Positions 4,825-19,677 of a DNA stretch of 64,000 nt are shown in pieces. The stretch comes from an archaeon. GTDB lineage: Archaea > Nanobdellota > Nanobdellia > Woesearchaeales > GW2011-AR15. Positions within the stretch are counted from its first letter, which is position 1; every line of letters begins with the position of its first letter. Both the position numbers and the translations under genes were made by a program. The notes under the pieces were generated by a model. That model searched no databases. It had not been told where the DNA came from and was given only the letters and a program-made list of their open reading frames with translations. The stretch lies in assembly GCA_043801855.1 (NCBI GenBank), contig JAZDLQ010000019.1, positions 384 to 64,383 of the forward strand. The letters are read 5' to 3'.

Positions 4825-7800
4825 GTGAATTTAATCAGGCGAACAAATACATTTTTACAGGTTGCATTCCTTCTCTTAACTCTGTTTGCCGGAAACGCAT
4901 GCGGTGCATATGTAATCAATCATGAGAAACCTGTAATCGGATATGTGACAGCAGATGGTGCAGCCAGTACAGAAAACGCAGATTGGATTAAATATGCAAA
5001 AAATAACAGCGTAAAGAATTTTACAGTAATGTCAATTGGCGCACAGTGGCCTAACATAACAAGATACGAAAGGCTTGTTGATGCATTTGTACTTGGTGAT
5101 TGGGAAAGCTCTTTATCAAGAAGGTTGAATCAATCATCAAAGGGCATTGTTGTTTTAGGCTATGGTGATTTTGATACAGAGTGGGGGTATTGCAACAATA
5201 CAGGTGATTGGCAGGGCGGAGCATTATACATCAACTCAACAAGCAGTATGACATTTTTTAATTCCACATATTACTGGTTTAATTCAACAGGCAGAAAAAA
5301 TGTTGTTGACACATATACAGATTTTCGCGGTTGTGGAAATGCAACATTTAGCACATATGAAAATAAATTCGGCTGCACCGATTCAAGTTATACAAAAGGC
5401 TCATGTTACGCACTTGATAATAACACACAGTATTATGACGGAGACGTATCAAGGAATACTCAGGCAAGGCTTGTCAGGCTTCCGCTTAGCGAACAATGGC
5501 TAGTTAGGCCCGAATTGAATCTGTCGTCCGACTATTTATTAAGAGACATTAGGGCAATTAACTGGGTAATTGAGCCATATAATAATGCCTATGTGCCAAT
5601 TAATCCTATTTTATCAAATGAAAACCTTACATTATGGGCTGTGTTTAATGATAGTAATATTTACCAAGATACCCCAATAAATGATTTATGGGTTAGAGAT
5701 TATGCTCCTGACTATGCAAATAACAGCCTTAGATACGGATGCTGCGGGTTTGGTGTTGAATTAAACTATACAGATATTGACGGGCATAAAAGAATGAAGA
5801 TGAATGGAACAGGAATATCTTATCCTTCAGAACTTGTCACAAATAACGCAACAAACATTTTTTTCGATTCCAGTGCATCCTATACAGTTGGTTTTGAATT
5901 CAGGCCATGGTCACTGTATCAGGCAGACAAGAAAAATAAAAATACATCATTTATAATTGCGAGTGACGATAATGTCACAAACAAGATGATTCGGTTTGGC
6001 TATAATAGCACAACTATCACATGGCTTTTAGCAGGTGAAAGCTGGAAATACATGGATTATTCCCTAAACGAAAGTAAAGTGTATTACATAATGATGGTTT
6101 ATGACAACTATAATGATGAAAATTTACTTTACATTGACGGCCTTTTCGCAGATGCTGTAAGAAATACATACACGAATTTCATTAAACTGTCTACTGGCAT
6201 AACATCAATTGGCTCAGCACAATTTAGTGAAGCTAATTGCACATTTGGCAACTTACGTTTTTTTGCACGCGGTTTAAATTTCACAGAAGTAATGGATTAT
6301 TTTTATGTTGATTCATCATCAAGCCCTGCACCTGATTCTGTTCCGTATGAAGATCAAAATTTTTCAGGAATTAATGACATGATTATTTACGCTGATAGGT
6401 ATGCTCCTCTTCTTGAAGTAAAATACTACAACAATGCATCACTTTCAAATAACTTTAGTATCCCAAACACCTTTTCAAAGCAAACAGGGCTTGAATGCAA
6501 ACCGTTTAATTTTTCATATGTCGCCTGTACATCATACAACAACCTAAATATGATTTCATTGAATGTTTCAGGAAACACATCAACTGTTGTTTACAAAGAC
6601 AGTACACCGACAGCAGCGCAGGCATTTTCATCTCTTGAAATCATAAGAAATAAGTATCCTGTAATTGCAACACCAAACGGAACAGCTGTCCCTTACATAA
6701 ATGTTACATGGCTTCATCCTGATGGCACGTTCTGGAAATCAAATTTAATACGCCCTCCTGTGAACACATCTATTGCGCCATCATATCAAATTAGTGTAAT
6801 TCAGGTTTATTACTTAAATGCAACAACTGATGCATTTGTAATCTTGGGAAAATATATGGGTGGCAGCAACGAATTTTTTATAATGCTTCATGATGGAAAT
6901 AATTGGGTCATAAACGAAACTCTTATTACAAGCATTCAATCATATTCTGCAAATGCTGCAGCAGTCCAGTGCCCTGACATTGGCAATACTTGTTATGTGA
7001 TGTATGGAAATAATTCTGCATTTGGCCAAGGCAATATAACTTACAGGCAGCTGTTTAGAAATAATTTCAGCCTAAGTTCAGAACAGTTTTTGTATGTCAA
7101 TGATAATACATTTGACACAAGAAACATCGCAAACACAATCAAAGGCTGCCCTGTTCCAAACAGCGACAAAGTTGCATTTATTTTTGACACCTATAACGGA
7201 AACACATACGGTTGGATGCTTATCTTCAATAGCACAATGGGACGGCGTCCTGAAAGTTATGCCACAAAATCATCCCAGATTCGAGCGTATAACAATGGCT
7301 ATGCAAAGGCATCTAATTGGGGATGCTTTCCGGATTATGTAAATAATATTACTGTAGGATTTTTTAATTACAATGGCGGTGGCTGCAATGGAAACTGTAC
7401 AATAACAAACTGGTACAATGACAGCAACAGGCAGTGGGCATTTTCTACATGGGACACATCTCGATACTGGCGCAATATCAACTCGCCTTATGCTGCAACA
7501 CAAGCATACAAATTATCACAATCAGTTGAACAGAATAAAACGGTTCTTTCATTTGTTGATATGAATAAAGCATTATGGTCTTTAGTTTTCTGGAATACAA
7601 CAACATTAAACTGGACAAATACTGCTCAAAATATTACTGACAACAATAGGCTAATGGAGCATGAAGCAAGCCTGATGCACTCTTATGTGATAATGCCATT
7701 ATTTCCCTTGAATGAAACAAGTGATCATGTATCTGTTAGTATTTCATGGGATTTTAATTTGACAATTCCGTTAACGCATAGTTTTTATTCGCCCTCTTCT

Positions 7801-9630
7801 GTGCACCAGTTTAATGTTACATGGAACAGTACTTCTGAAATATCCAGTGTATTAATTGAGCATAATTTTACTGGTGCACTCACAAATTATTCTGTTTCAG
7901 GAAATTCTGGCAATGTGTACTATTATAATTTTGGAACACTGAGTGCAGGCTCTTATAAATGGAAGATGTACGCAGAGGATATTAACGGCTTGAAAAATGA
8001 GACGCCTGAATTCATTTATTCGATAAATAAAATAAGTCCCGCTCTTAACCTTACATTAAACAATACAGAAGGAAACATCACAGTTAGGGCAGGCTCAATT
8101 GTCAACATCACTGCAATTAAAGTATTAGGTGAATCTTTCATTGAGTTATATGTAAATAATTCATTTATTAATAATGGAACAGTTGTGTTAAGTAACCTCT
8201 CTACATTTAATTCAACTGGACTCGTCAATGTTACATTACTTTACATAACTTCAGCAAATTATAGTTCTGCATACACATCATATTTCATTACTGTTCTATC
8301 TAATGACACTGCTGTAAGTGAGGAAACGGTTGTTGTTGATGATGAAAGCCCGAGTAATAGAGGTGGCGGCGGAGGCGGAGGTGGTGGCTCAGGAGGCGCA
8401 GCAGGCAGTAATTCAGCCTCTTATAAAGAAATACTTATACTGTCTAATATAACAACTAACGAAGAATTTGCGCTTAACATTAAAAATAAAAATATGGCAT
8501 TAAATAGCATTTCATGCACCTCTTTTATAACATTAAAAAATCCTGAGTTTAAAATTGCCAGATTGTCAGATATGCCTGTAGTATTCAGTGATTTAAATTC
8601 AAGTATCTACCAATTTTTAAAAATTGACCTGCCAATTACAGCGCAGGAAAACAGTTTTAAAAGTTGCACTATTGGATTTTTTATCAATAATACTTGGATC
8701 ACTGAAAATTCCATAGATACAAATTCAATAATTCTTGTAAGGCAGGAAGGCAATGCAACTTTGCAATATCTGCACGCAAAGTTTGTTAGAACAGATTTGG
8801 CAAACACCTATTTCACAGTAAACTCGCCAGGAATGTCATATTATGCAATAATTGGCAATACTATTCCTGCAGAACCTGAAAAAATAACAGGAATGGCAGT
8901 TATTTCAGACGAAATTATCGACCCGCAGCATGAAGAAAGTAGCCTGACACCAGACATCACTAAAAAAACAGAGCAGCCTGAAAAAATTGGGCGCTTGGAA
9001 ATTATTGCTCAGATGCCATTATTTATTTTACAAATATCAGATTTCTTTAAAGGGATTAGCTACAAAATTCATCTGCACATATTTGCAATAATTTTTTGCA
9101 GCGGCCTTTTCATTTATCTCATCACAAGTAAAGCTGCAAAACAGTGCAAAAATAAAGCAGCATTAGATAATAAAAAGGAAATAAAATCTTCTTTAAATCA
9201 GGGAAAAATATACTTTATCAATGAAAAAGAAAAAGAAAAATCACTTCCTGTTTTTAATGAGCTGGTTAAATGGAGGCATGGCTTATATGTACTGCCAGCG
9301 CACTGCAAAACAGAATTAAAGGCAATTCATACTATAAGCTATTTATTTTTAACCTTTGAAAAAACAGACAATTCAGTAAATCCTAATGACATTAAGGGAC
9401 TTTACGATAAATTAACTGCATTTATTTTAAAAGATGAAAAAAGTGCAGTATTGATACACGGTTTTGATTTACTTATTAAAAATTCAAATTTCGAAACAGT
9501 TATTTATGCCATAGATGTTCTTCAGGAATTTATTTCCGATAAAAAAACAATAGTATTTATTTCACTAAATCTAAACTCCCAAAATAAAAAAAACCGCGAT
9601 ATCATTCGCTCAAAATTCTCAGTAATGTAA
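4825..9630 (+). CDS. Giant (1601 aa) N-glycosylation-rich surface protein: signal peptide, LamG/ConA-like domain, Ig-like repeats, poly-Gly linker, PGF-pre-PGF-like domain, TM helix, cytoplasmic DUF835-like domain
   Basis: Signal peptide FLQVAFLLLTLFAGNACGA. Roughly 80 N-x-S/T sequons. LamG-like YYIMMVYDN..LLYIDG..FGNLRFFARGLNFTEVMDYF. Linker GGGGGGGGGSGG. PGF-pre-PGF-like CTIGFFINNTWITENSID..ILVRQ..YFTVNSPGMSYYAIIG. TM IFAIIFCSGLFIYLI. DUF835-like AVLIHGFDLLIKNSNFETVIYAIDVL. GTG start. Confidence 0.8.
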   Translation: MNLIRRTNTFLQVAFLLLTLFAGNACGAYVINHEKPVIGYVTADGAASTENADWIKYAKNNSVKNFTVMSIGAQWPNITRYERLVDAFVLGDWESSLSRRLNQSSKGIVVLGYGDFDTEWGYCNNTGDWQGGALYINSTSSMTFFNSTYYWFNSTGRKNVVDTYTDFRGCGNATFSTYENKFGCTDSSYTKGSCYALDNNTQYYDGDVSRNTQARLVRLPLSEQWLVRPELNLSSDYLLRDIRAINWVIEPYNNAYVPINPILSNENLTLWAVFNDSNIYQDTPINDLWVRDYAPDYANNSLRYGCCGFGVELNYTDIDGHKRMKMNGTGISYPSELVTNNATNIFFDSSASYTVGFEFRPWSLYQADKKNKNTSFIIASDDNVTNKMIRFGYNSTTITWLLAGESWKYMDYSLNESKVYYIMMVYDNYNDENLLYIDGLFADAVRNTYTNFIKLSTGITSIGSAQFSEANCTFGNLRFFARGLNFTEVMDYFYVDSSSSPAPDSVPYEDQNFSGINDMIIYADRYAPLLEVKYYNNASLSNNFSIPNTFSKQTGLECKPFNFSYVACTSYNNLNMISLNVSGNTSTVVYKDSTPTAAQAFSSLEIIRNKYPVIATPNGTAVPYINVTWLHPDGTFWKSNLIRPPVNTSIAPSYQISVIQVYYLNATTDAFVILGKYMGGSNEFFIMLHDGNNWVINETLITSIQSYSANAAAVQCPDIGNTCYVMYGNNSAFGQGNITYRQLFRNNFSLSSEQFLYVNDNTFDTRNIANTIKGCPVPNSDKVAFIFDTYNGNTYGWMLIFNSTMGRRPESYATKSSQIRAYNNGYAKASNWGCFPDYVNNITVGFFNYNGGGCNGNCTITNWYNDSNRQWAFSTWDTSRYWRNINSPYAATQAYKLSQSVEQNKTVLSFVDMNKALWSLVFWNTTTLNWTNTAQNITDNNRLMEHEASLMHSYVIMPLFPLNETSDHVSVSISWDFNLTIPLTHSFYSPSSVHQFNVTWNSTSEISSVLIEHNFTGALTNYSVSGNSGNVYYYNFGTLSAGSYKWKMYAEDINGLKNETPEFIYSINKISPALNLTLNNTEGNITVRAGSIVNITAIKVLGESFIELYVNNSFINNGTVVLSNLSTFNSTGLVNVTLLYITSANYSSAYTSYFITVLSNDTAVSEETVVVDDESPSNRGGGGGGGGGSGGAAGSNSASYKEILILSNITTNEEFALNIKNKNMALNSISCTSFITLKNPEFKIARLSDMPVVFSDLNSSIYQFLKIDLPITAQENSFKSCTIGFFINNTWITENSIDTNSIILVRQEGNATLQYLHAKFVRTDLANTYFTVNSPGMSYYAIIGNTIPAEPEKITGMAVISDEIIDPQHEESSLTPDITKKTEQPEKIGRLEIIAQMPLFILQISDFFKGISYKIHLHIFAIIFCSGLFIYLITSKAAKQCKNKAALDNKKEIKSSLNQGKIYFINEKEKEKSLPVFNELVKWRHGLYVLPAHCKTELKAIHTISYLFLTFEKTDNSVNPNDIKGLYDKLTAFILKDEKSAVLIHGFDLLIKNSNFETVIYAIDVLQEFISDKKTIVFISLNLNSQNKKNRDIIRSKFSVM

Positions 9631-9633
9631 AAA

Positions 9634-10104
9634 ATGCCTCCAGTAAACATCATTTTAATACTGAAAGATTATGGTTTTACGATAATTATGTCTTTTGCAT
9701 TCCTATTCTTTTTTATTAAAATATCGCCATTGATTAACAACAGATTAGAAATTGTGCTCTCATATGTGAAAAGCATATTTTTTGCAAATCAGCTTTCAGT
9801 GCAAAACCCGCATAAGATAAATTCTGTTGAGTATAATGGAATTATCGCACAGTATAAAAAAATTCCAAAAGACACATGTGACAGAACAAAGTTCGAGACT
9901 GCAATTGCAAAAAAGATAACTGAAGAAAAGGGCAGTTTTTCAGTTAGTGATGTTCTTAAGAAAATTGACGAACTGTATTCAGGCTCACTTGGACGGCAAG
10001 AAAGAATTGATTTATATGAAGATGTCAAAAGATGGACAAGCCATGGAGACTTATGCACCATTGATAAAGAAGAGCATAGTGTAAAATATTTTAAATTTAA
10101 ATAA
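9634..10104 (+). CDS. Hypothetical protein with an N-terminal TM helix
   Basis: Co-directional ORF 4 nt after the giant gene. One N-terminal hydrophobic helix. No motif recognised. Confidence 0.4.
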   Translation: MPPVNIILILKDYGFTIIMSFAFLFFFIKISPLINNRLEIVLSYVKSIFFANQLSVQNPHKINSVEYNGIIAQYKKIPKDTCDRTKFETAIAKKITEEKGSFSVSDVLKKIDELYSGSLGRQERIDLYEDVKRWTSHGDLCTIDKEEHSVKYFKFK

Positions 10105-10127
10105 CAAAAAACGAGGTGAAAAATTAT

Positions 10128-10424
10128 ATGAAATTAAAAACAATTGCAATAATGCTGTTAATTGCGATATCATTAACAACAACAGTATTAGCGCTGGAAG
10201 TTGATCCAATAACAGGATATTTTAACGGTAAAATACTGCCATTTATCCAAAGTGTTGGAACAATTTTTGTGATAGTTGGCGTTATATTTGGCGGCTTTAA
10301 GTTTGTCAAATCAGATGATCCGGCGGAAAAAAGCAAGGGAAAAAACATTATAATCGGCTGCGTTATAGCGCTTGCATTATTATGGCTTGCACCTGCTCTT
10401 GTTGAATATCTTAAGCCTTCATAA
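10128..10424 (+). CDS. VirB2/TrbC-like pilin candidate
   Basis: Signal peptide MKLKTIAIMLLIAISLTTTVLA, then two hydrophobic helices split by a short charged loop (IFVIVGVIFGGFKFV-KSDDPAEKSKGKN-IIIGCVIALALLWLAPALV). GAGGTGA RBS before ATG 10128; the ORF track starts at GTG 10116. Confidence 0.6.
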   Translation: MKLKTIAIMLLIAISLTTTVLALEVDPITGYFNGKILPFIQSVGTIFVIVGVIFGGFKFVKSDDPAEKSKGKNIIIGCVIALALLWLAPALVEYLKPS

Positions 10425-10426
10425 GA

Positions 10427-11968
10427 ATGCAAGTTAATTTTTTTTTATTTTTTTTATTAATTATTATTATGTCATCATCAGGCGTTGCAGAAACAGACAC
10501 ATTATCATTTGCATATTGCAAGAAAATAGGCATTGACTGCACAACCAGTGAATTTCCTAAAGACATCGACATTGATAGAGAAAAAGAAATCATATTAACA
10601 AAAATCATGGAAAAAACAAAACCACCGTATCACAATCTGGTGCAGTTATGGAATTTAAATACAGATTTTTTGGAAAAGCCAGCAGATGTTGAAATTGTTA
10701 ATTATAAAACCATATCAAACGCATGGATAATAACTCCGGCAGTAATGCCTTCAGTAAATTATAATAATGTTTACTACATAGGAGATTCTGGCATTGTTCT
10801 TACATCGTATAACTATTCTTTAAGCATTCCTGAAAATTATGTTGGAACAACAAAAACCTGTGATAAAAACCCAGTTGTAAATGAATTGAATGATTGCAAA
10901 ACACTTTACACAGGCAATACTGATGAAACCACACTAAGTATATATCAGAACAATGTATTAATAGGAAACAATAGGGTAACAGAAGTTAATTCAGAAGACT
11001 CAAATTCATTTGAATCCGTATTAAGCATAAAAAATGCAATAGATATTAAGCATTATAAATGGGATAAAACAGGCAAATGCTGCCAGTATAAATCTTGCTG
11101 TTTTAAGGTCAACAATAAAAAAGTATGCAGAAGAGATAAAAGATGCGGCTGTGATATTAATGAAAAGGAATGCAGGTTTAATTCAAACGATAAAAAAACA
11201 GACGAACTCGAATTAAAAAGTTCATTTTATGCAGCAAAAGAAAATGCAATACTGCCGCAGGATAATAACTTAATAATTGATAGTTCCGGCATTCAAAGTA
11301 AAGCGCAATTAAGTATTAACACTAATAGTTTAGTTTCATACCAAATTAATTATGAAACACAGATAATAAAAAAAGAATATGGAAAATACAAGTTAAACCA
11401 TATATATGCGCCTCAAAACATTTTATTTGTCTCTTTTATCAATAATGAAAAACTGTACACTGAAAACGCTAAAATTAATTATATAAAAAAAACCGATATT
11501 TCTGAAATTTTATCATTTGCTGCAGAACCTGCAGAGCCTGAAACATGTAAAATTCTCTTAGATAAATTCTTCAGTGCCAGTATTTCTGACTGCAATATTA
11601 TGCAACTTTCTAAAAGCAGCTTATTAATTGAAACTGATAAGTGGTTTTACGCAGTCAATGATACAATTAAACTAAAATTATATTTCACTAATCCTAACAA
11701 TGAAAAAAAAACAATAGCAGTAAGTTACTCAAACCAATCAATTATTGATGAGACAACAGGAGAGATTTTTGAAGCTGCTTTTATTCCTGATATTAGTGCA
11801 TCGCTTATTACTGCACAACTTCAAGGGACATCGGATTATAGTTCAAGTGAGTCATCTGCATTAATTACAGTGTATGACAATTCTGATTATGCGCCGCTTG
11901 TTTGGGCGGTTTTTATTATAATTTTCATGTATTTGGGCTATCGGCTTATTATAAAGGGAGTGAAATAA
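10427..11968 (+). CDS. Secreted, C-terminally membrane-anchored protein with a Cys-rich core; unknown function
   Basis: N-terminal signal-like FFLFFLLIIIMSSSGVA. Cys cluster KCCQYKSCCFKVNNKKVCRRDKRCGCDINEKEC. C-terminal TM LVWAVFIIIFMYLGYRLII. Confidence 0.5.
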   Translation: MQVNFFLFFLLIIIMSSSGVAETDTLSFAYCKKIGIDCTTSEFPKDIDIDREKEIILTKIMEKTKPPYHNLVQLWNLNTDFLEKPADVEIVNYKTISNAWIITPAVMPSVNYNNVYYIGDSGIVLTSYNYSLSIPENYVGTTKTCDKNPVVNELNDCKTLYTGNTDETTLSIYQNNVLIGNNRVTEVNSEDSNSFESVLSIKNAIDIKHYKWDKTGKCCQYKSCCFKVNNKKVCRRDKRCGCDINEKECRFNSNDKKTDELELKSSFYAAKENAILPQDNNLIIDSSGIQSKAQLSINTNSLVSYQINYETQIIKKEYGKYKLNHIYAPQNILFVSFINNEKLYTENAKINYIKKTDISEILSFAAEPAEPETCKILLDKFFSASISDCNIMQLSKSSLLIETDKWFYAVNDTIKLKLYFTNPNNEKKTIAVSYSNQSIIDETTGEIFEAAFIPDISASLITAQLQGTSDYSSSESSALITVYDNSDYAPLVWAVFIIIFMYLGYRLIIKGVK

Positions 11969-13011: not shown

Positions 13012-14049
13012 ATGAATAAAAAATATATATTCTTTTTTTCGTGCATTTCTATGTTAATAATCATAAATTACTCCTATGCAGATGATTATTGTGAAACATT
13101 AGGCGGGAAATTTTGCACTGCTGAAGAATATTGCAATGGCAATGAGAAAATTGCGCTTAACAATTATGAAATAGGAAGCTGCTGCATAGGAACGTGCAAT
13201 AGTTATAATTCTGTTTTTTGTGAGAATGTGACAAAAATCGAAAATTCCGTCAATTGTGCAGCATTAACTTCAAAAGAAAAGCTTTCAAATTATAAAATTT
13301 CATCACTCTCGTTATTCATAAAATTATTTAATCCGCAGATAACAGCAAAGCCTATTCAAAAGCTATATAATTTTTGGATGAGCTTATTTTCCGTTATTGG
13401 AACAATTATTGTGATACTTACTGCTTTTAAGTACTTAAGCTTGTTATTTGACCCAGCCGCTTCTCCTGAAGAGATTCTAAGCCTTAAAAACAAGATGTTT
13501 TTTTTTATTTTTGGAATTTTGTTTGTCTTTGTTTTTCCGCATGTAATCTCTTTTTTATTCACCACATTAAATTTTACCTTTACAGTTATATCTCGGATTT
13601 TTGTAGATGATGGAAATGTATTGGCATTATCAGAAATGTTAACAAAAACAGATGGGGCCAACATTCTTTTTTTAATGAGAGATTTTTTATTCTTCCTGTT
13701 TCTTATAATACTTCTTTTAAGATACTTGGTAATCACAGTACTTCTTGTTTTTTCGCCAATTATGATATTTATGTACCTTTTTGTTTTGACGGAAAAGCTT
13801 GGCACAAAGTGGTTAACTGTGCTATTAATAAGTATCTTCATGCCTGCCTTGTGGCTGTTATTATTTGCCCTTTTAATTCCAATTGCGTCAGTTATTGGCA
13901 GCAGTGTTTCAGAGGGTATTCTTTTACCTGTATTTATGAGCGCAATAATTTACTTTAATATTTCTATTTATAGAACATTGATTGGGCTTGAATTTAGTTT
14001 TCGGGAGATTGTATTTTCAATTGTTAAATTATGGAGTAAGGTAATGTGA
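13012..14049 (+). CDS. VirB6/TrbL-like polytopic membrane protein with an N-terminal Cys-rich ectodomain
   Basis: Signal peptide, then CETLGGKFCTAEEYCNGNEK...SCCIGTCN, then about 6 TM helices. Same architecture as the next gene. Confidence 0.5.
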   Translation: MNKKYIFFFSCISMLIIINYSYADDYCETLGGKFCTAEEYCNGNEKIALNNYEIGSCCIGTCNSYNSVFCENVTKIENSVNCAALTSKEKLSNYKISSLSLFIKLFNPQITAKPIQKLYNFWMSLFSVIGTIIVILTAFKYLSLLFDPAASPEEILSLKNKMFFFIFGILFVFVFPHVISFLFTTLNFTFTVISRIFVDDGNVLALSEMLTKTDGANILFLMRDFLFFLFLIILLLRYLVITVLLVFSPIMIFMYLFVLTEKLGTKWLTVLLISIFMPALWLLLFALLIPIASVIGSSVSEGILLPVFMSAIIYFNISIYRTLIGLEFSFREIVFSIVKLWSKVM

Positions 14050-15143
14050 AACAGGCAAATTTATTTTTTTTAATATTTTTAATTATATTACTGGCAGTTC
14101 CGATATGTTATTCCCAAAATACAGACAGGCCATGTACAGAGGATGAAATATGTGACGGAGTAATTATTAACGGCATTTGCAGCGGCACATGCACTGCAAA
14201 AGGAGAAACAAGCTGCTCTCTTTTGGATTTTTCAGCAGAGTGTATTATTGGAAGCCTGGTTAACAAACTTAAGGCAAGTTTCGAGGAATTTTTAAACAAG
14301 TCATTTCTATTTATTCTTGATTTTAATGTAAATGCAAAGGGAAATGAAAAATTGTGGCAGTTTTCATACAGCATATCTTTTTTAATTGCAGTATTTCTAT
14401 TGTCAGTTACTTCAATTTCGTATTTTAAGGAAGCACTTCTTGACAACTCCAGCGTTGAACTATTAAATTCTTATAAGGCGCAGTTCATCCGATTTATTTT
14501 CATGCTGATTTTTCTTGCAGGCTGTTCTTATATTGCATCACTTGTTACTGAAGGTTTTTACATATTTAATTTAGAAATATTAAAGGCAATGGATTTTAAC
14601 CTTATTGAAAGTTTTGTGTCAGTCATTCTTGCAAGCTTAATTATCCTGCTTCCGATAATTTATTTGTCACTGGGCGCAGGACTTGCAGTATACATAGGAG
14701 TTATTGTCACATTTTTTGTAATTGCGGCTCTTAGAATAATTATTTTATACCCGCTTTTGTCTGTTATGCCAATTGCAATTGTTCTTTGCCATTTTGAATC
14801 AACAAAGCCAATAGGAAATACCCTTATTCGTTTTGTATTCTCGCATTTCATTATTTTGACTGTTTGGGTCGTTGTTTTTGCTGTTGCAAATGATGCAATG
14901 GAAGGAATAATAATTGTCAGTAACATTGCACAGGGATTTTTTTTGCTTGCAGCATTTCTTATTAATTCTGTATTATACTTCAAAATAAATTCATTTTTTG
15001 CAGCGCTTGAGTTTGCGCCTAAGAAAGCAAGAACAGTAGTAGAACGCGGCGTTACTAATGAAAGGGTTGTAGTTTTAAGAGAAAAAATATTTGGCAAAAG
15101 CCTGTACAATGGGCAAAAGAGCCTGATAAAATATGTTAAATAA
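14046..15143 (+). CDS. VirB6/TrbL-like polytopic membrane protein, same architecture as 13012-14049
   Basis: Signal peptide, then PCTEDEICDGVIINGICSGTCTAKGETSC, then about 6-7 TM helices. Its GTG start overlaps the upstream stop (GTGA). Confidence 0.5.
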   Translation: MKQANLFFLIFLIILLAVPICYSQNTDRPCTEDEICDGVIINGICSGTCTAKGETSCSLLDFSAECIIGSLVNKLKASFEEFLNKSFLFILDFNVNAKGNEKLWQFSYSISFLIAVFLLSVTSISYFKEALLDNSSVELLNSYKAQFIRFIFMLIFLAGCSYIASLVTEGFYIFNLEILKAMDFNLIESFVSVILASLIILLPIIYLSLGAGLAVYIGVIVTFFVIAALRIIILYPLLSVMPIAIVLCHFESTKPIGNTLIRFVFSHFIILTVWVVVFAVANDAMEGIIIVSNIAQGFFLLAAFLINSVLYFKINSFFAALEFAPKKARTVVERGVTNERVVVLREKIFGKSLYNGQKSLIKYVK

Positions 15144-15145
15144 GG

Positions 15146-16081
15146 GTGTTAAAAATATCACTTGAAATACCGCAGTGGCTTACAGACGGGGAAACTAAAG
15201 ACAGTTTTTCATTCAGGAGTTTTGAAGAAACACTTATTGCGCTTGGGCTTGGGATATTTTCCTTGGTTTTACTTATAAAACTTCCATTTGGGTTTAAATA
15301 CAACCTGATAATCAGTGCAGCATTATTTGTCGGTATTTTTGAAACATACAGGTATGTCTCAGCAAATTATTACAAATGGAAGCTTCTTTCTAACTCTTAC
15401 CATAATGTTTCTTTTTTTGATTCAAAAATGAATGACTACCTAAATATTCGGGAAATCAAAAATAAGGTTATTTTTTTCAAAGATAATACTATGATGTCAA
15501 TTCTTCGTGTAAAGTCTATTGACGGCAGCCTTCTAGGCGACGATGAAATTAATAGTGTTATTGAAACATACGGCGCAGCAATAAAATCAATACCGCACAC
15601 CATATTTGTTTTTTCACATTCAGTTGAACCGTCATTAAACAGTTTTTTTGCATCCACAGATGAAAAAATCATAAAGAAAGGAGGAGATTATGAAGAAAAC
15701 ATCAAGCGAAACAAGGAAACACAGAAATGGCTTATTGAAAAAATGAAAGAAAGTGACTGCAGGGACAGGATAAGCTATTTTGGAGTTTTGTGTAAAAAAA
15801 AGACTGTTTCAATGTCATTTTCTGATTCACTTGCATTTCTTTTTAATATAAAAGGTTTTCATGAAGTAAACAAAGAATCAAAAACAGAAGCTTTTCGGGA
15901 ACGGCAGATATCTGACATGAATATTATTATTGAAAATGCCGCACTTGCAATTGACAAAACAGGTGCAACAGCACATGTCCTTAATGACGATGAACTTATT
16001 GGCTTATACTCGTATTATTTTTTAAACATTAAAGGTGTTGGCAAATCCAACCTTTCGCCATTTATGTGGCTGGAGGAATAA
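15146..16081 (+). CDS. Membrane protein (VirB3-like two-TM N-terminus) with a soluble domain resembling the VirB4 N-terminal region
   Basis: Two TM helices (LIALGLGIFSLVLLI, LIISAALFVGIF), then NKVIFFKDNTMMSILRVKSIDGSLLGDDEINSVIETYGAAIKSI. Sits directly upstream of the VirB4-like genes. Confidence 0.4.
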   Translation: MLKISLEIPQWLTDGETKDSFSFRSFEETLIALGLGIFSLVLLIKLPFGFKYNLIISAALFVGIFETYRYVSANYYKWKLLSNSYHNVSFFDSKMNDYLNIREIKNKVIFFKDNTMMSILRVKSIDGSLLGDDEINSVIETYGAAIKSIPHTIFVFSHSVEPSLNSFFASTDEKIIKKGGDYEENIKRNKETQKWLIEKMKESDCRDRISYFGVLCKKKTVSMSFSDSLAFLFNIKGFHEVNKESKTEAFRERQISDMNIIIENAALAIDKTGATAHVLNDDELIGLYSYYFLNIKGVGKSNLSPFMWLEE

Positions 16082-16082
16082 G

Positions 16083-17336
16083 ATGCAAAAAAACAAGCCT
16101 ATTGAAATTTTTTCAAATTTAAAATCGCGCGGTAAATTCGCTCTTGACGGTATTTTGACTCTTGAAGATAATTCCATTTTTGCTGTAATTGAAGTAACTC
16201 ATTTTCCATTTTATGACTTTGACAAAAAAACAAGGAATCAAATTACTGAAAAAATAAATACCATTCTTTTTAAGAAACTCTCGTTTCCTGTTGAACTTCT
16301 CATACGCCCTGTAAACTTAAACATTGACAAAAAAATTGCAATAATGAATTCCATTCTTACATATAACGTCAATAAAACAGATAAGCCAAAACTTATTGAA
16401 TGCCTTGAATCCTTCATGAAATGGTTTAGTGCATTTGGCGCAAAACTCACAAATTCTGAAGTTGCATACTACTTAACTGTAAACTATAAAGGGCTTAATA
16501 ATGAAAAAGGAGCAGCATGCAACGACATTTTGCAAAAAAGAATTGAATTTGTCATATCTGCACTAAACACCTCAGGGATAAAATCAAAACAATTAACAAC
16601 AGCACAGATTGAAAATGTGTACAAGTCATTTCTATCAGCCCACATTTATGTTAAAGGCACATATTACTTTGCAAAAGAGTGGATTGCATTATATAGGAAA
16701 GAAGCAGCAAATGAAGATAAAAATAATGCAGTATATGATGAAATAATTGAGCAGGTAAATTTATTATCTAATAATCAGGTTTTGTTTGACAGGCTTAAAA
16801 TGGGCAACATGCTTTACAGGGGAATTATTGTTGTTGCAAATCCTGAAAAAATTATGCCTGATTTTGTAAACAAGATATACCAAAACATAGATAATGTCAT
16901 AACATCAGTAAATGTATCTCCTGAATCTGTAATTAATGTTGTGCATCACCTTATGCATGAGCTTAGTATTACTGAAAAGGAAATTAACAGCCTTGCACTT
17001 GAAGGCAAAATTTCAGGAAAAGGCATGGTTGCGCTTGAAAACCGAAGAAATTTTCTAAAAGAAAAAATTGAAAAATTAATGTCAGAGGAACTAATGCCGT
17101 TTAAATTAAGCTTAACTTTTTTAGTTGAAGAAATAAATGACGAAAATCTTGATTATGCCTCAAATTCTCTTATGTCTTCATTAAGAAAACTTGGTTTTGT
17201 GTTAAAGTTTGCAGTTAATTATCAAAAAGAAGCTTTTTTAACAATTTTGCCAAGCGGCGCAAACTATCTGAGGCGGCGTGAAATTATTGTTGCAAATGAT
17301 CTTGTTTCAACTATGTTTAATTTCTCAAAAAGGTGA
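16083..17336 (+). CDS. ATPase-less paralog of the VirB4 N-terminal domain
   Basis: GGAGGAA RBS before ATG 16083. AFLTILPSGANYLRRREIIVANDLVSTMFNF parallels YVLKTIIPTGANRLTKHELFVPDKSLQATMPFL in the next gene. No Walker motifs. Confidence 0.5.
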   Translation: MQKNKPIEIFSNLKSRGKFALDGILTLEDNSIFAVIEVTHFPFYDFDKKTRNQITEKINTILFKKLSFPVELLIRPVNLNIDKKIAIMNSILTYNVNKTDKPKLIECLESFMKWFSAFGAKLTNSEVAYYLTVNYKGLNNEKGAACNDILQKRIEFVISALNTSGIKSKQLTTAQIENVYKSFLSAHIYVKGTYYFAKEWIALYRKEAANEDKNNAVYDEIIEQVNLLSNNQVLFDRLKMGNMLYRGIIVVANPEKIMPDFVNKIYQNIDNVITSVNVSPESVINVVHHLMHELSITEKEINSLALEGKISGKGMVALENRRNFLKEKIEKLMSEELMPFKLSLTFLVEEINDENLDYASNSLMSSLRKLGFVLKFAVNYQKEAFLTILPSGANYLRRREIIVANDLVSTMFNFSKR

Positions 17337-17379
17337 CTAAAAAATTTTACAGAAACAATACAGTGAATCAGAAATTGAC

Positions 17380-19533
17380 TTGTCTCTTATTAAGATTGAA
17401 CGGCTTTTATTAAAAAACGGGCTTGTTTATCCTGATGATTTTAACAAAATTTGCGAAAGCCTTTCAATTGAAGAGAGAAGCATCTTATTAAAAAAACTAG
17501 AAAATAAAAATTACATAAATATTGACGATGAAAAAATAATCAAGTATTCGCCGAAAGAGTACAGTTCGGTTTATGATGAAAAAATAATACTTCGCGATAT
17601 ATTAAAGCTTGATTATGTCAACACAACCAAAGAATATGTACAGGTTGGGACAATGTATTTTAAAGGCATTATATGCCGGCGTTTTCCATCATCACCAAAA
17701 ATAAACTGGCTAAAGAAACTTACAAGCGACAAGTCAAAAATTGACTATTCCATAATCATGTCGCAAAGCGACATGAATGAGCTAAAGCTATTCTTAAGAA
17801 AAGAACTACGAAAGACTGAGGATGAACTTTACAAATATTCAAATTCAGGAAGAAGCAGCCCTGAACTGGAAAGAAAAAAAGAAGACCTTGTTAACCTGAT
17901 TGCTCGTCTTGGCATTGAATATTATGAGTTTAAGGTTGCACTATTCATTATTGTTAAAGGAAATTCGCTTGAAGAAGTTGAAAACCTCAAAGAGTATGCA
18001 ATTTCAATTTTAAGAGGAGAAGACATCATTGCAGAAGATGCAACTTACCTGCACGAGTATGTACTTAAGACTATTATTCCTACAGGCGCAAACAGGCTTA
18101 CTAAGCATGAGCTTTTTGTTCCTGATAAAAGCCTGCAGGCAACAATGCCGTTTTTGCATCCCTGGCAGGACATTGAGCCTGATGATGAAATAATACTTGG
18201 GTTTAACGAATCAGGATTAGTTGCAACAGGAAATATTTGGAAACTTGGCAGTTACTCCGGATTATATATGGGAAAAACAGGCAGCGGCAAGTCAATGGCT
18301 GCAAAATACGAAATATATCAGCAGATGTTAATTGGAGGCGCAAGAGTCATTGTAATCGATCCTGCAGCTTCAAAAGTAAAAGGTGCGGCAGCAGAATATT
18401 ACAGAATGTGCAGCCTCTTAAACGGAAAATATATCTCATTTTCAACAGATTCAGAAAACCTTCCTAATATCATGGGAACATTTCCTGACACAAGGTTTGA
18501 TGATGAGATGCGAAGGATTGATTCAATTATTCGAGTGTTTTTTGAAGATGAAGAAAAACGTGTGCCTGAGCCGCAGAAGCCGTTAATTGCAACAGCAATT
18601 GTTGAATCATTCAGAAGAAAAGGAATTACAAGAAAAACAAAAGAATTTTGGAAAAAGCTCCAGCCAAAACTTGAAGACTTGCTTTTTTCATTTAAAAAAG
18701 GGCTTCTAAGCGCAAAAACTGAAAGCACAAGGATGAGTTATGAGGCATTAATTAAGCGGCTTGAGCCTTGTGTTGGAAGTGGGCTTAGAAGCTATCTTAA
18801 TACTGAAGGCAAGACCGAAAATGTTGGCGAGCAGTTAACGGTGTATGAGTTTAAGGATACTCCAATGGATGATAAGCCTGTATTAATTACAAGGATGTTA
18901 AGTTACATAAAAAACATTGCACTTCAGACATTTGACAGGACAATTATTGTTTTGGAAGAGTCACAGTTCTGGCTTCGTGACCCGTATTTATCAAAATACC
19001 TCGCGGAAACAGAAACAACAATCAGGAAAACTAATACCGGTCTTCGCCTCATAATACAGGACTTGGGCCAGCTTGAAGGATGCAAGGAAGGCTTAACATT
19101 ACTTGGAAACCTGGCGTTTGTATATTTGTTCCAGACAGCGCCAAACCTTGTTCCATTAACACAGGAAACGTTTAAACTGAATGATGCTGAAAGCAAAGTA
19201 ATTGAAACATCAAAAGCAGGCGACTATGGCATTTTAATCTGGGAGAATAAGCATTATAAGCTCAAAGTTACAGTAGATCCTGAAACATATAATCTTATTA
19301 CAACAAATCCTGATGAAGTAAAAAGAATAGAAGATGAAGGCGGCCTTAAAAAAACAGAAAAAGTAGTGAAGGACTTATTAAAAGAAGATTTGGGCTATAT
19401 GCCGTTAACTATTCAGGCAGGACTTTCTGAACTTGCCGGAAAAATAAAAAACAAAGTACATGTAACATCAATTACAAAGCATTATCCTGATTATTACAGA
19501 AAAATCTTAGAACAGTTGTGCAAATTAAAATGA
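17380..19533 (+). CDS. VirB4/TrbE/CedB-like T4SS ATPase
   Basis: Walker A GKTGSGKS, Walker B-like TIIVLEESQFW, then RKTNTGLRLIIQDLGQL, with a VirB4-type N-domain. 717 aa. TTG start in the ORF track. Confidence 0.75.
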   Translation: MSLIKIERLLLKNGLVYPDDFNKICESLSIEERSILLKKLENKNYINIDDEKIIKYSPKEYSSVYDEKIILRDILKLDYVNTTKEYVQVGTMYFKGIICRRFPSSPKINWLKKLTSDKSKIDYSIIMSQSDMNELKLFLRKELRKTEDELYKYSNSGRSSPELERKKEDLVNLIARLGIEYYEFKVALFIIVKGNSLEEVENLKEYAISILRGEDIIAEDATYLHEYVLKTIIPTGANRLTKHELFVPDKSLQATMPFLHPWQDIEPDDEIILGFNESGLVATGNIWKLGSYSGLYMGKTGSGKSMAAKYEIYQQMLIGGARVIVIDPAASKVKGAAAEYYRMCSLLNGKYISFSTDSENLPNIMGTFPDTRFDDEMRRIDSIIRVFFEDEEKRVPEPQKPLIATAIVESFRRKGITRKTKEFWKKLQPKLEDLLFSFKKGLLSAKTESTRMSYEALIKRLEPCVGSGLRSYLNTEGKTENVGEQLTVYEFKDTPMDDKPVLITRMLSYIKNIALQTFDRTIIVLEESQFWLRDPYLSKYLAETETTIRKTNTGLRLIIQDLGQLEGCKEGLTLLGNLAFVYLFQTAPNLVPLTQETFKLNDAESKVIETSKAGDYGILIWENKHYKLKVTVDPETYNLITTNPDEVKRIEDEGGLKKTEKVVKDLLKEDLGYMPLTIQAGLSELAGKIKNKVHVTSITKHYPDYYRKILEQLCKLK

Positions 19534-19548
19534 ATATGGGTGTAAAAA

Positions 19549-19677
19549 ATGTCATGGCAATGTAAAGCATGCGGAAATTGGAATTCAGACTATCTGAGCG
19601 AGTGCAATAATTGCGGAAAAGACTCGTATCAGAACACTAAAAAACGTAAATATGAAGAGATTGGGTGGTTTGGGTGA
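19549..19677 (+). CDS. 42-aa RanBP2-type zinc-finger micro-protein (candidate)
   Basis: MSWQCKACGNWNSDYLSECNNCGK fits W-x-C-x2-C-x3-N-x6-C-x2-C exactly. Below the ORF-track length cutoff. Overlaps the start of the next ORF by 26 nt. Confidence 0.35.
   Translation: MSWQCKACGNWNSDYLSECNNCGKDSYQNTKKRKYEEIGWFG

What the first reader, a model, noticed from the sequence alone, without database searches (positions are those of the whole stretch)
4825..19677. Type IV secretion-like (Ced/Ted-like?) membrane apparatus in an archaeal-looking context, with no relaxase or coupling protein
About 14 co-directional, tightly packed genes. They encode a giant adhesin, a VirB2/TrbC-like pilin (10128-10424), two VirB6-like polytopic proteins, a VirB3-like two-TM protein and one VirB4-like ATPase (Walker A GKTGSGKS). 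I see no VirD4/TraG-type second ATPase, no HUH or MOB relaxase motif, and no VirB8/9/10 or PG hydrolase. In bacteria this gene set would be incomplete for conjugation. The only characterised archaeal relatives I know are crenarchaeal plasmid systems and the Ced/Ted DNA-import machines. Other genes in the window point to a different, AT-rich lineage (DPANN or Euryarchaeota-like). It could be a minimal DNA-transfer or DNA-uptake machine, or a cell-cell contact machine.
Basis: partly seen in the sequence, partly recalled or inferred. Interest (0 to 1): 0.85.

Follow-up and report, generated by a model that had tools for sequence, protein, structure and literature searches.

The report
DPANN archaeal type IV secretion cluster
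A tiny symbiotic (DPANN) archaeon carries a compact type IV secretion gene cluster with a conjugative-type pilin and a single motor ATPase, and that ATPase is partnered with a restriction-enzyme-like nuclease that may do the DNA-cutting job of the missing relaxase.

Summary
Window 4825-20893 is one tightly packed, co-directional cluster in a DPANN (Woesearchaeota/Nanoarchaeia-like) MAG.

Components identified:
- a VirB2/T4SS_pilin pilin
- two VirB6/TrbL-like paralogues
- a PrgI/VirB3-like protein
- a TrsD-like paralogue of the VirB4 N-domain
- one VirB4 ATPase
- a giant glycosylated surface protein ending in an inactivated KaiC domain

The 64 kb window contains no coupling protein and no recognisable relaxase.

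1. The next gene (19652-20893) is part of the module. It has a confidently modelled PD-(D/E)XK nuclease-like fold with invariant E/H/D/E/K residues. It always follows virB4, and in a sister clade it is fused to VirB4.
2. An archaeo-eukaryotic primase-like gene lies next door, and its orthologues travel with the cluster in relatives.
3. By composition, the closest known system is the Patescibacteria (CPR) T4SS rather than Ced/Ted.

The gene order is conserved in at least ten independent DPANN contigs, but the family is rare.

My best reading (about 40%) is a conjugation-like DNA-transfer machine on an accessory, probably mobile island, with the nuclease standing in for the relaxase. DNA import and CPR-style host interaction remain live rivals.

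Novelty: a new variant of a known kind.

The parts
4825..9630 (+). Giant (1601 aa) surface protein. Signal peptide, heavily sequon-rich ectodomain, Gly-rich linker, one TM helix (residues 1415-1433) and a cytoplasmic DUF835 domain (inactivated KaiC, no Walker A).
   Evidence: Pfam DUF835 at E 1.5e-12, above cutoff. TM helices and 67 sequons against about 30 expected. DUF835 is classed as inactivated KaiC in PMC5847659. A giant DUF835 protein also heads the cluster in L001 and L003.
9634..10104 (+). 156-aa membrane-anchored protein of unknown role, conserved in the module.
   Evidence: The C-terminal 70-100 aa are conserved in L001, L003, L012 and L014, at the same position just before the pilin gene. 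No Pfam hit.
10116..10424 (+). VirB2-type pilin. Signal peptide, TM1, a charged loop and TM2.
   Evidence: PF18895 T4SS_pilin at 44.7 bits (cutoff 26.6); PF04956 TrbC at 26.7 bits (cutoff 27.9). All 6 orthologues hit both families. Three hydrophobic segments.
10427..11968 (+). 513-aa Cys-rich exported protein with a C-terminal membrane anchor. Candidate pilus-associated or contact protein; this role is inference only.
   Evidence: N- and C-terminal hydrophobic segments and 14 Cys. It directly follows the pilin gene in both DPANN subclades at 26-44% identity. No Pfam hit.
11972..12538 (+). 188-aa polytopic membrane protein (about 5 TM helices), role unknown.
   Evidence: Hydropathy. 31% identical orthologues at the same position in L002-L004.
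12543..13001 (+). 152-aa exported or anchored Cys-containing protein, role unknown. A VirB8-like fold was not tested.
   Evidence: N-terminal hydrophobic segment. 48% identical orthologues in L002-L004.
13012..14049 (+). VirB6/TrbL-like polytopic protein, paralogue 1. Cys-rich N-terminal ectodomain followed by at least 5 TM helices.
   Evidence: Paralogous to 14046-15143 (BLAST E down to 1e-13 through orthologues). Family scan: TrbL in 3 of 12 members and T4SS_pilin in 2 of 12. Weak pilin-like NCBIfam hit at residues 116-183.
14046..15143 (+). VirB6/TrbL-like polytopic protein, paralogue 2.
   Evidence: Orthologues in L001 and L005 carry precomputed PF19590 TrbL_3 hits. PF04610 TrbL found in family members at best E 1.5e-5. 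Six hydrophobic segments. The window protein itself is below threshold.
15146..16081 (+). PrgI/VirB3-like membrane hairpin fused to a roughly 230-aa cytoplasmic domain ('X').
   Evidence: Four of 9 orthologues hit PF12666 PrgI at best E 1.8e-5. The L005 orthologue has a weak TraC-like hit. The cytoplasmic domain is homologous to the N-half of the next protein (HHalign 97.8%, E 6.8e-13).
16035..17336 (+). Soluble 433-aa protein. N-half is domain X'; C-half is a paralogue of the VirB4 N-terminal domain (TrsD-like).
   Evidence: HHalign of the C-half against the VirB4 N-domain, using disjoint sequence sets: 99.6%, E 1.5e-24. NCBIfam CD1110 VirB4 positions 194-367 at E 3.3e-5. BLAST to the L001 VirB4 at 8.6e-13. 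Split into two genes in L002-L005.
17380..19533 (+). VirB4-family ATPase. It is the only secretion ATPase in the window.
   Evidence: PDB 4ag5 VirB4 at E 1.3e-11. NCBIfam CD1110, mycoplasma-ICE, TraC and VirB4_CagE models at 3e-31 to 2e-8. Orthologues carry PF19044 P-loop_TraG. Walker A GKTGSGKS. Walker A and the Walker-B-region Glu are invariant.
19549..19677 (+). 42-aa CxxC...CxxC zinc-ribbon mini-ORF in the gap between virB4 and the nuclease gene. Whether it is a real gene is uncertain.
   Evidence: Translation. No counterpart in relatives, where the two flanking genes overlap.
19652..20893 (+). VirB4-associated protein. Long helical N-part plus a C-terminal PD-(D/E)XK (restriction-endonuclease-like) domain. 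The true start is probably TTG at 19682.
   Evidence: Domain model pLDDT 93, pTM 0.87. Foldseek top hits are MspJI, BamHI (prob 1.0), Cdn1, Can2, HamA, Bax1 and Mrr-like proteins. E301, H305, D332, E349 and K364 are invariant in 17 sequences. The gene is adjacent to virB4 in the window, L001, L002, L005 and L017, and fused to VirB4 in P0008, P0009, P0044 and L012-L015.
21034..22461 (+). Neighbouring archaeo-eukaryotic-primase-like (PrimPol-type) protein with an N-terminal HhH. Probably the replication gene of the same accessory island; not part of the secretion module proper.
   Evidence: Invariant DxD, SGNGxH and D motifs. Distant homologue P0066 carries D5_N plus DUF5906 helicase domains. 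Orthologues lie 10-16 kb downstream of the T4SS on the same contigs.

Best explanation
This is a functional, minimal, pilus-bearing type IV secretion system of the monoderm kind. Its parts are a VirB2 pilin, two VirB6-like channel proteins, a PrgI/VirB3-like protein, a TrsD-like protein and a single VirB4 motor. It sits in an accessory, probably mobile, island of a Woesearchaeota-like DPANN genome.

Proposed mechanism:
1. The giant glycosylated surface protein and the Cys-rich anchored protein make cell-cell contact. (inferred)
2. VirB4, docked on the VirB3/TrsD-like adaptors and the VirB6-like pore, assembles the pilus and drives transfer. (inferred from family roles)
3. The substrate is DNA. 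It is cut or nicked at the cytoplasmic mouth of the channel by the PD-(D/E)XK protein that is always adjacent to, or fused with, VirB4. (inferred)
4. That protein would replace the relaxase, and by being tethered to VirB4 it would also remove the need for a coupling protein. (inferred)
5. I favour export, meaning self-transfer of the island, which carries its own AEP primase-like gene. (inferred)

Shown here: the component identities, the conserved synteny, the gene fusion, and the nuclease fold with its invariant acidic residues. Substrate, direction of transfer and mobility of the island are all inferred.
For: - Component families are identified.
- The operon-like order is conserved in two DPANN subclades over at least 10 contigs.
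- The nuclease-like gene always follows virB4 and is fused to it in the roughly 1013-aa proteins.
- The nuclease domain model is confident, and the top matches in two independent Foldseek libraries are almost all PD-(D/E)XK nucleases.
- E, H, D, E and K residues are invariant at 24-56% identity.
- There is precedent for PD-(D/E)XK relaxases: MOB_C, TraX of pAD1 (PMC12857230).
- The context looks like an island. An AEP primase-like gene is adjacent, its orthologues and several other genes travel with the cluster in relatives, and there is a TA pair, Cas4-like nucleases and many small ORFs.
- The family is rare. There are about 10 close VirB4 clusters among 5.8e9 proteins. The partner protein has 24 representatives among 1.84e9. 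Nine of 185,579 species genomes matched in the pattern-limited scan. This fits accessory rather than core status.
Against: - No integrase, att repeat or flanking tRNA was found in the window or in relatives.
- The window also holds ordinary chromosomal genes, and GC content does not shift across the cluster.
- One relative sits on a 406-kb contig.
- Every experimentally supported archaeal conjugative plasmid has a VirD4-like T4CP as well as VirB4 (PMC12857230). None is present here.
- The nuclease assignment is at fold level only: TM-scores are 0.3-0.4, Foldseek E is 4e-3 or weaker against PDB, and sequence or profile searches of Pfam, NCBIfam, PHROGs (full-length protein) and PDB (full-length and domain profile) returned no significant match.
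- The third catalytic position is Q or E rather than K.
- No oriT was identified.
- The direction of transfer cannot be read from sequence.
Confidence: 0.4

Rival explanations
1. Host-interaction machine like the Patescibacteria T4SS. The DPANN cell would use the pilus and channel at the contact site with its host to take up or deliver non-DNA cargo (proteins, RNA, metabolites, signals). Under this reading the nuclease-like partner has a regulatory or defensive role.
For: - The part list matches the CPR system: VirB4, a TrsD-like protein, PrgI/VirB3, VirB6 and PF18895 pilins, with no relaxase or T4CP in the cluster (PMC12102498, PMC10633639).
- The best non-DPANN VirB4 scores are to CPR proteins: 126 and 98 bits, against 71 or less for plasmid VirB4s.
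- A giant surface protein heads the operon.
- DPANN archaea are episymbionts. A related idea has been proposed for nanohaloarchaeal giant proteins with VirB4 (PMC10266531).
Against: - The CPR system is present in about 80% of Patescibacteria genomes and is essential. This family is rare among DPANN.
- A nuclease fused to the motor argues for a nucleic-acid substrate.
- The DPANN VirB4 clade did not nest inside the CPR clade in a crude tree.
- There is a single pilin gene, not a pilin array.
Confidence: 0.25
2. DNA-import machine analogous to Ced/Ted. The pilus and VirB6-like pore would bring in DNA from neighbouring cells or the host. The VirB4-tethered nuclease would process it for recombination or break it down to supply nucleotides.
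For: - The minimal VirB2 + VirB6 + VirB4 composition without T4CP or relaxase is what Ced and Ted have (PMC9905601).
- The nuclease sits at the cytoplasmic face of the channel through its fusion to VirB4.
- From general knowledge, DPANN archaea generally lack nucleotide synthesis.
- Cas4-like and RecB-like nucleases and XseA lie nearby.
Against: - No sequence link to Ced/Ted could be tested, because CedB/TedB sequences were not to hand. A pilin profile search found no solved pilin.
- Rarity argues against an essential feeding role.
- The primase-bearing, island-like context fits self-transfer better.
Confidence: 0.2
3. Artefact or relic. Either bacterial (CPR) DNA was mis-binned into an archaeal MAG, or the cluster is a decaying, non-functional remnant.
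For: - The VirB4 and pilin families are typically bacterial.
- The 16035-17336 gene is split into two in some relatives, and one relative's VirB6-like gene is broken (L002).
Against: - Archaeal hallmarks lie on the same contigs: DUF835 and MEDS inactivated-KaiC domains, an AEP primase, PCNA in L007 and L008, a DRG GTPase, and sequon-rich surface proteins.
- All hosts are labelled archaea in independent assemblies.
- All window ORFs are intact and tightly spaced, and catalytic motifs are invariant.
Confidence: 0.03

Closest known systems
Patescibacteria (CPR) type IV secretion system (Southlakia SEML1_0006-0019; Quinonero-Coronel et al. 2025, PMC12102498; Wang et al. 2023, PMC10633639)
   Same: - It occurs in a monoderm, ultrasmall episymbiont.
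- It combines VirB4, a TrsD-like VirB4-N paralogue, PrgI/VirB3, VirB6 and PF18895/VirB2-type pilin.
- There is no relaxase or T4CP inside the cluster.
- CPR proteins give the highest non-DPANN VirB4 similarity scores.
   Different: - The host here is archaeal.
- The VirB4s form their own clade, with only 23-24% identity to CPR proteins.
- There is one pilin gene instead of an array.
- The system is rare rather than near-universal.
- A PD-(D/E)XK partner adjacent to or fused with VirB4, a giant DUF835 surface protein, and a neighbouring AEP primase-like gene are not mentioned in the passages I read on the CPR system.
Ced and Ted DNA-import systems of Sulfolobales and Thermoproteales (PMC9905601)
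   Same: Archaeal, domesticated and minimal: a VirB2-like pilin, a VirB6-like pore and a VirB4-like ATPase, with no relaxase or T4CP. The substrate is DNA.
   Different: - There is no demonstrated sequence relationship.
- The components here fall in bacterial-type Pfam families (T4SS_pilin, TrbL, PrgI).
- This cluster additionally has VirB3-like and TrsD-like proteins and a dedicated nuclease-fold partner.
- The context here is island-like, not a core chromosomal repair locus.
Archaeal conjugative plasmids and ICEs (pNOB8 family, pT33-3, thaumarchaeal ICEs; PMC12857230, PMC6563490)
   Same: VirB4-based archaeal DNA-transfer modules without a recognisable relaxase. They are often accompanied by primase-type replication genes and carried on mobile DNA.
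   Different: - Those carry a VirD4/TraG-like T4CP alongside VirB4 and have no VirB2-type pilin.
- Here there is no T4CP but a clear VirB2 pilin.
- VirB4 similarity is very low: pNOB8 41 bits, Haloprofundus plasmid 48 bits.
MOB_C relaxases (TraX of pAD1, MobC of CloDF13; PMC12857230)
   Same: A PD-(D/E)XK (restriction-endonuclease) catalytic fold used for DNA processing in a conjugation system.
   Different: - No sequence similarity was detectable: no Pfam or NCBIfam hit, and no tblastn hit in 72,556 plasmids.
- The architecture differs, with a long helical N-part.
- It is physically coupled to VirB4.
- Nicking activity is untested.
Nanohaloarchaeal giant 'SPEARE' proteins with an adjacent VirB4 (PMC10266531)
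   Same: A DPANN giant membrane-anchored surface protein with a cytoplasmic P-loop-fold tail, encoded next to a VirB4-family ATPase, and proposed to belong to a T4SS used at the host interface.
   Different: - The tail here is DUF835 (inactivated KaiC, no Walker A), not a VirB4/TraG-like ATPase domain.
- This cluster has the pilin, VirB6 and VirB3 parts, which the passages I read of that report do not mention.

Membership tests
Type IV secretion system (VirB4-based mating-pair-formation module) | VirB4-family ATPase with an N-terminal domain and a P-loop C-terminal domain | tested here: met
   PDB 4ag5 at E 1.3e-11. Four NCBIfam VirB4 models match at 3e-31 to 2e-8, all below their equivalog cutoffs. 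Orthologues carry PF19044. Walker A is present.
Type IV secretion system (VirB4-based mating-pair-formation module) | VirB6/TrbL-like polytopic channel protein encoded nearby | tested here: met
   Met through orthologues: precomputed PF19590 hits and PF04610 in 3 of 12 family members at 1.5e-5. The two window proteins themselves are below threshold.
Type IV secretion system (VirB4-based mating-pair-formation module) | VirB3/PrgI-like small membrane protein next to VirB4 | tested here: met
   PF12666 PrgI in 4 of 9 orthologues at 1.8e-5. The window copy is below threshold, and it is longer than usual (311 aa, with an extra cytoplasmic domain).
Type IV secretion system (VirB4-based mating-pair-formation module) | VirB2/TrbC-type pilin | tested here: met
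   PF18895 above the gathering cutoff. All 6 orthologues hit both PF18895 and PF04956.
Conjugative element (plasmid or ICE) | Relaxase of a known MOB class | tested here: not met
   No relaxase family appears in Pfam or NCBIfam scans of the cluster and of most of the window's ORFs of at least 100 aa. The only candidate is the unclassified PD-(D/E)XK protein.
Conjugative element (plasmid or ICE) | Type IV coupling protein (VirD4/TraG or TcpA) | tested here: not met
   VirB4 is the only secretion-type P-loop in the 64 kb window. No T4CP Pfam family is listed for about 45-60 kb around the cluster in relatives.
Conjugative element (plasmid or ICE) | Integrase with att sites, or a replicon of its own | tested here: inconclusive
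   No integrase, tRNA or flanking direct repeat was found. An AEP primase-like gene is adjacent and co-travels in relatives. About 17 kb of the source contig was not seen.
Patescibacteria-type T4SS | TrsD-like paralogue of the VirB4 N-domain encoded beside VirB4 | tested here: met
   HHalign 99.6%, E 1.5e-24, using disjoint sequence sets. NCBIfam CD1110 N-region at 3.3e-5.
Patescibacteria-type T4SS | VirB4 belongs to the monophyletic Patescibacteria clade | tested here: inconclusive
   In a crude NJ tree (566 columns, 100 bootstraps) the DPANN sequences form their own 100%-supported clade outside the CPR group. Deep nodes have 67% support or less. A proper ML tree was not possible.
Patescibacteria-type T4SS | Near-universal presence in the lineage, at a chromosomal core location | tested here: not met
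   Only about 10 close VirB4 clusters were found, and the pattern-limited genome scan returned 9 species genomes.
Ced/Ted DNA importers | Homology of pilin, pore and ATPase to CedA1/TedC, CedA/TedA and CedB/TedB | not tested
   No Ced/Ted ATPase or pore sequences were available. A pilin profile search against PDB sequences found no pilin.
Ced/Ted DNA importers | Recipient-encoded DNA import | not testable with these tools
   Requires genetics or labelled-DNA assays.
MOB_C (PD-(D/E)XK) relaxases | Restriction-endonuclease-like catalytic fold with conserved acidic residues | tested here: met
   AF2 pLDDT 93. Foldseek hits to BamHI, MspJI, Mrr-like and others at probability up to 1.0 but TM 0.3-0.4. 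E301, D332 and E349 are invariant.
MOB_C (PD-(D/E)XK) relaxases | Sequence membership in the MOB_C family, and site-specific nicking at an oriT | tested here: not met
   No Pfam or NCBIfam hit, and no tblastn hit in plasmids or phages at E <= 1. Nicking is untestable here.
Nanohaloarchaeal SPEARE-type giant protein | C-terminal cytoplasmic VirB4/TraG-like ATPase domain | tested here: not met
   The C-terminal domain is DUF835 without a Walker A motif.

The most novel reading that the evidence does not exclude
The cluster is an archaeal counterpart of the CPR 'lifestyle' T4SS that works as a feeding or DNA-capture device. The DPANN cell would pull host DNA through a VirB2 pilus and VirB6 pore. 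A restriction-enzyme-like nuclease bolted onto the VirB4 motor would cut the DNA as it enters, supplying nucleotides or genes. In this arrangement a motor-tethered PD-(D/E)XK enzyme replaces both relaxase and coupling protein.
Probability: 0.15. Interest if true: 0.9.

Novelty: new variant of a known kind. Interest (0 to 1): 0.65.

Why it matters
No relaxase has been identified in any archaeal DNA-transfer system. How relaxase-less and T4CP-less T4SSs (Ced/Ted, CPR) handle their substrate is an open question. This family offers a concrete candidate that can be tested biochemically. It is a small nuclease-fold protein whose link to VirB4 is supported by strict adjacency and by gene fusion.

It also extends VirB2-pilin-bearing, CPR-like T4SSs to DPANN archaea, the archaeal analogue of the CPR lifestyle. 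I found no description of such a system in the papers searched, including a December 2025 T4SS review. If the island is mobile, it would be the first conjugation-type element proposed for DPANN.

Tried and rejected
- Exact-match contig look-up of the window ATPase and of P0001 found nothing, so the rest of the 80,953-nt source contig was not seen.
- There are no tRNA, rRNA or Rfam features in the window and no tRNAs in ten related loci. tRNA-type att sites could therefore not be used.
- The repeat search over 1-34000 gave only short AT-rich chance-like pairs. None brackets the cluster.
- Sequence or profile searches against PDB gave nothing significant for the nuclease protein, its domain profile, the primase-like protein, the pilin profile, the VirB6 profile or the PrgI-like profile.
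- PHROGs gave nothing for the cluster proteins tested.
- I suspected that the second 717-aa ORF (27405-29558) was a VirB4 duplicate or a T4CP. It has no P-loop and no family hit, so I rejected that idea.
- The first HHalign run was inflated because the two sequence sets shared members. I repeated it with disjoint sets.
- The NJ tree does not resolve deep placement. I use it only to show a distinct DPANN clade.
- Comparing the DNA downstream of the nuclease gene across loci gave motifs shared by close relatives and a hairpin in the window. It gave nothing I can call an oriT.


Full report
**1. What is there**

The + strand from 4825 to 20893 carries thirteen sizeable ORFs. Inter-gene distances run from -47 to +140 nt, and most are 2-11 nt. 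GC content is 31-36%, no different from the flanks. The window has no tRNA, rRNA or Rfam feature.

The ATPase is 100% identical to NCBI 'MAG: hypothetical protein V1859_02245 [archaeon]' on an 80,953-nt contig. Its closest relatives (59-76% identity) are labelled Nanoarchaeota. More distant relatives (33-40%) lie in MAGs labelled Woesearchaeota, Nanoarchaeia and Nanoarchaeota.

Several archaeal hallmarks share these contigs:
- DUF835 and MEDS domains, both inactivated KaiC (PMC5847659)
- a DRG GTPase with a TGS domain
- an AEP primase-like gene
- PCNA, in relatives

The archaeal, DPANN context is therefore solid. Bacterial contamination is very unlikely.

**2. Component identification**

- *Pilin.* 10116-10424 is a VirB2-type pilin. 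PF18895 scores 44.7 bits against a 26.6 cutoff, and TrbC scores 26.7 against 27.9. All six orthologues hit both families. The protein has a signal peptide and two TM helices around a charged loop.
- *VirB6-like pair.* 13012-14049 and 14046-15143 are paralogous polytopic proteins with Cys-rich N-terminal ectodomains. Orthologues carry TrbL_3 hits. Three of twelve family members hit PF04610 TrbL/VirB6, and two hit the pilin family. The pilin hits fit the VirB2-VirB6 N-terminal relationship noted by Beltran et al. (PMC9905601). The two window copies are sub-threshold on their own.
- *PrgI/VirB3-like.* For 15146-16081, four of nine orthologues hit PF12666 PrgI. The protein also has an extra cytoplasmic domain.
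- *TrsD-like.* In 16035-17336 the N-half is homologous to that extra domain (HHalign 97.8%, E 6.8e-13). The C-half is a paralogue of the VirB4 N-terminal domain (99.6%, E 1.5e-24, disjoint sets). The protein is therefore TrsD-like in the sense of PMC12102498.
- *VirB4.* 17380-19533 matches PDB 4ag5 at 1.3e-11, the NCBIfam CD1110 family at 3e-31, the mycoplasma ICE VirB4 model at 1e-27, TraC at 8e-17 and VirB4_CagE at 2e-8. All NCBIfam matches are below the equivalog cutoffs. Walker A is GKTGSGKS.
- *Giant first protein.* It has a signal peptide, 67 sequons against about 30 expected, a TM helix at 1415-1433 and a cytoplasmic DUF835 domain.
- *Four further proteins.* 9634-10104, 10427-11968, 11972-12538 and 12543-13001 are membrane or exported proteins. 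They have no family hit but hold conserved positions in the cluster.

**3. What is absent**

Pfam and NCBIfam scans of the cluster and of most other ORFs of at least 100 aa in the window found no T4CP, relaxase, VirB8/9/10/11 or wall hydrolase. A strict Walker A motif occurs only in VirB4 and in the DRG GTPase. No T4CP family is listed for the 45-60 kb around the cluster in relatives either. In L001 and L003 a KaiC-like ATPase follows the giant protein, but the window lacks it.

**4.

The next gene, 19652-20893 (start probably TTG at 19682), belongs to the module for two reasons:
- Orthologues at 41-50% identity immediately follow virB4 in L001, L002, L005/6 and L017.
- In the more distant subclade the protein is fused to the C-terminus of VirB4. 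These fusions are 993-1015 aa in L012-L015, and also include P0008, P0009, P0041 and the intein-bearing P0044.

*Structure.* The full-length model (pLDDT 77) shows a long helical N-part and an alpha-beta-beta-beta-alpha-beta C-domain. The domain-only model, built on 17 sequences, has pLDDT 93 and pTM 0.87.

*Foldseek.* Against PDB the hits are MspJI, BamHI (probability 1.0), Cdn1, Can2, Card1, BsaWI, HamA, Bax1, OkrAI, EcoT38I, PaqCI, SwaI and FokI. Against BFVD the hits are Mrr-like, RecB-family and restriction endonucleases, with best E 7e-5. The matches are at fold level only, with TM 0.3-0.4.

*Conserved residues.* E301, H305, D332, E349 and K364 are invariant. Position 351 is Q or E, as in the BamHI-type ExE variant.

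*Distribution.* The family has only 24 representatives among 1.84 billion proteins. It has no plasmid or phage homologue. One distant ExE-type member is not next to virB4 on its short contig.

**5. Neighbourhood**

21034-22461 has the invariant DxD, SGNGxH and D motifs of archaeo-eukaryotic primases. A distant homologue carries D5_N and DUF5906 helicase domains. Its orthologues lie about 10 kb (L007) and about 16 kb (L008) downstream of the T4SS on the same contigs. In between are runs of small co-directional ORFs, PCNA, a methylase and DUF932.

Several other window genes also have counterparts in those stretches: 26176-26613, 26983-27294, the ThiF-like 30383-31030, 33996-34820, and the Cas4-like 47963-48415. 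The window further holds an AbrB/PIN pair, three PD-(D/E)XK/Cas4-like genes and two restriction-modification systems. It also holds ordinary chromosomal genes: XseA, an arginase-family enzyme, a PLP enzyme, a DRG GTPase and a deacetylase.

I found no integrase, att repeat or tRNA. The cluster therefore lies in an accessory, island-like region whose mobility is plausible but unproven.

**6. Relationship to known systems**

With phmmer, the window VirB4 scores as follows:

| Target | Bits |
|---|---|
| CPR proteins | 126 and 98 |
| actinobacterial plasmid VirB4 | 71 |
| Haloprofundus plasmid | 48 |
| Bacillus plasmid | 46 |
| pNOB8 | 41 |
| F-type TraC | 32 |

A crude NJ tree gives a 100%-supported DPANN clade with two subclades, but the deep nodes are unresolved.

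- *Closest by composition.* The Patescibacteria T4SS has VirB4, TrsD, PrgI, VirB6 and PF18895 pilins, has no relaxase or T4CP in the cluster, and is essential for epibiosis.
- *Ced/Ted.* These share only the minimal VirB2/VirB6/VirB4 logic.
- *Archaeal plasmids and ICEs.* These pair VirB4 with VirD4 and lack VirB2 pilins.
- *Nanohaloarchaea.* A VirB4 next to giant surface proteins has been proposed there.
- *Literature.* Searches for DPANN with VirB4, T4SS or type IV secretion, and for Woesearchaeota with conjugative, found no description of this system. The December 2025 T4SS review lists no DPANN system.

**7. Mechanism and weighting**

A nuclease-fold enzyme strictly coupled to the motor, and in one subclade fused to it, points to DNA as the substrate. 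MOB_C relaxases show that this fold can serve conjugation.

Rarity and the island-like context favour self-transfer, to which I give about 0.40. The lack of a T4CP, an integrase or an oriT keeps DNA import (0.20) and CPR-style host interaction (0.25) alive. I put an artefact or relic at about 0.03. Direction of transfer, substrate and mobility are all inferred, not shown.

**8. Verdict**

This is a new variant of a known kind. It is of real interest to T4SS and DPANN specialists, because the VirB4-nuclease coupling is a testable answer to the question of what replaces the relaxase.

Noticed in passing
window 19549-19677 (+): A 42-aa CxxC...CxxC zinc-ribbon mini-ORF (MSWQCKACGNW...CNNCGK...) fills the gap between virB4 and the nuclease-like gene. 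Relatives have no such ORF, because the two genes overlap there.
   Followed up: partly
proteins P0044 (1320 aa) and P0015 (1217 aa), relatives: VirB4 homologues interrupted by what look, by eye, like intein/homing-endonuclease inserts at the P-loop (the insert follows GAGKS in P0015). P0044 is in the DPANN clade and P0015 is CPR-like. For P0015 the precomputed Pfam domains PF14528 and PF14890 fall in the insert.
   Followed up: no
window 21034-22461 (+): AEP primase-like protein with an N-terminal helix-hairpin-helix. It lacks a roughly 180-aa internal domain present in all close orthologues (about 650 aa), but it is not truncated at either end.
   Followed up: partly
window 26157-26190 and 31031-31064: A 34-nt element containing its own inverted repeat occurs twice (85% identical). 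The two copies bracket a 4.9-kb block holding a 717-aa orphan ORF, a MEDS protein and a ThiF-like gene.
   Followed up: no
window about 20900-20932: An 11-bp-stem AT-rich hairpin (GATATATTTAG...CTAAATATATC) lies immediately after the stop of the nuclease-like gene. It could be a terminator or a protein or nick site.
   Followed up: no
L001 13480-13760, L002 11410-11660, L014 12935-13050: Downstream of the nuclease-like gene, L001 and L002 share a repeated TTCATTCGCCATAG motif, and L014 has a direct repeat CCACCTAAACCCTGCCT x2. These may be coding on the other strand or may be binding sites.
   Followed up: no
window 899-1531 and 1543-2100 (+): Two tandem polytopic membrane proteins, each with an HExxH motif (HEAGH, HERTH) and no Pfam family. 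They are followed by a Cas4/Dna2-like PD-(D/E)XK nuclease with a C-terminal Cys cluster (2030-2983).
   Followed up: no
window 34904-37951 (+) and 55382-63844 (-): A single 1015-aa fusion of an N6-adenine methylase with an SNF2-type helicase. Separately, a type I R-M system (HsdR, HsdS, HsdM) with an embedded PLD-family NgoFVII-like nuclease gene (58489-59109).
   Followed up: no
L015-L018: Four short T4SS-bearing contigs come from MAGs labelled 'uncultured Methanosarcinales archaeon'. Either the label or binning is doubtful, or the element reaches beyond DPANN.
   Followed up: no
window 25019-26263 (-): A full-length bacterial-type exonuclease VII large subunit (XseA, Pfam E 4e-80) on an archaeal contig, next to an AbrB/PIN toxin-antitoxin pair (24162-24826).
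   Followed up: no
window 27405-29558 (+): A 717-aa ORF, by coincidence the same length as the VirB4, with no P-loop, no Pfam, NCBIfam or PHROG hit, and no counterpart in related loci.
   Followed up: partly
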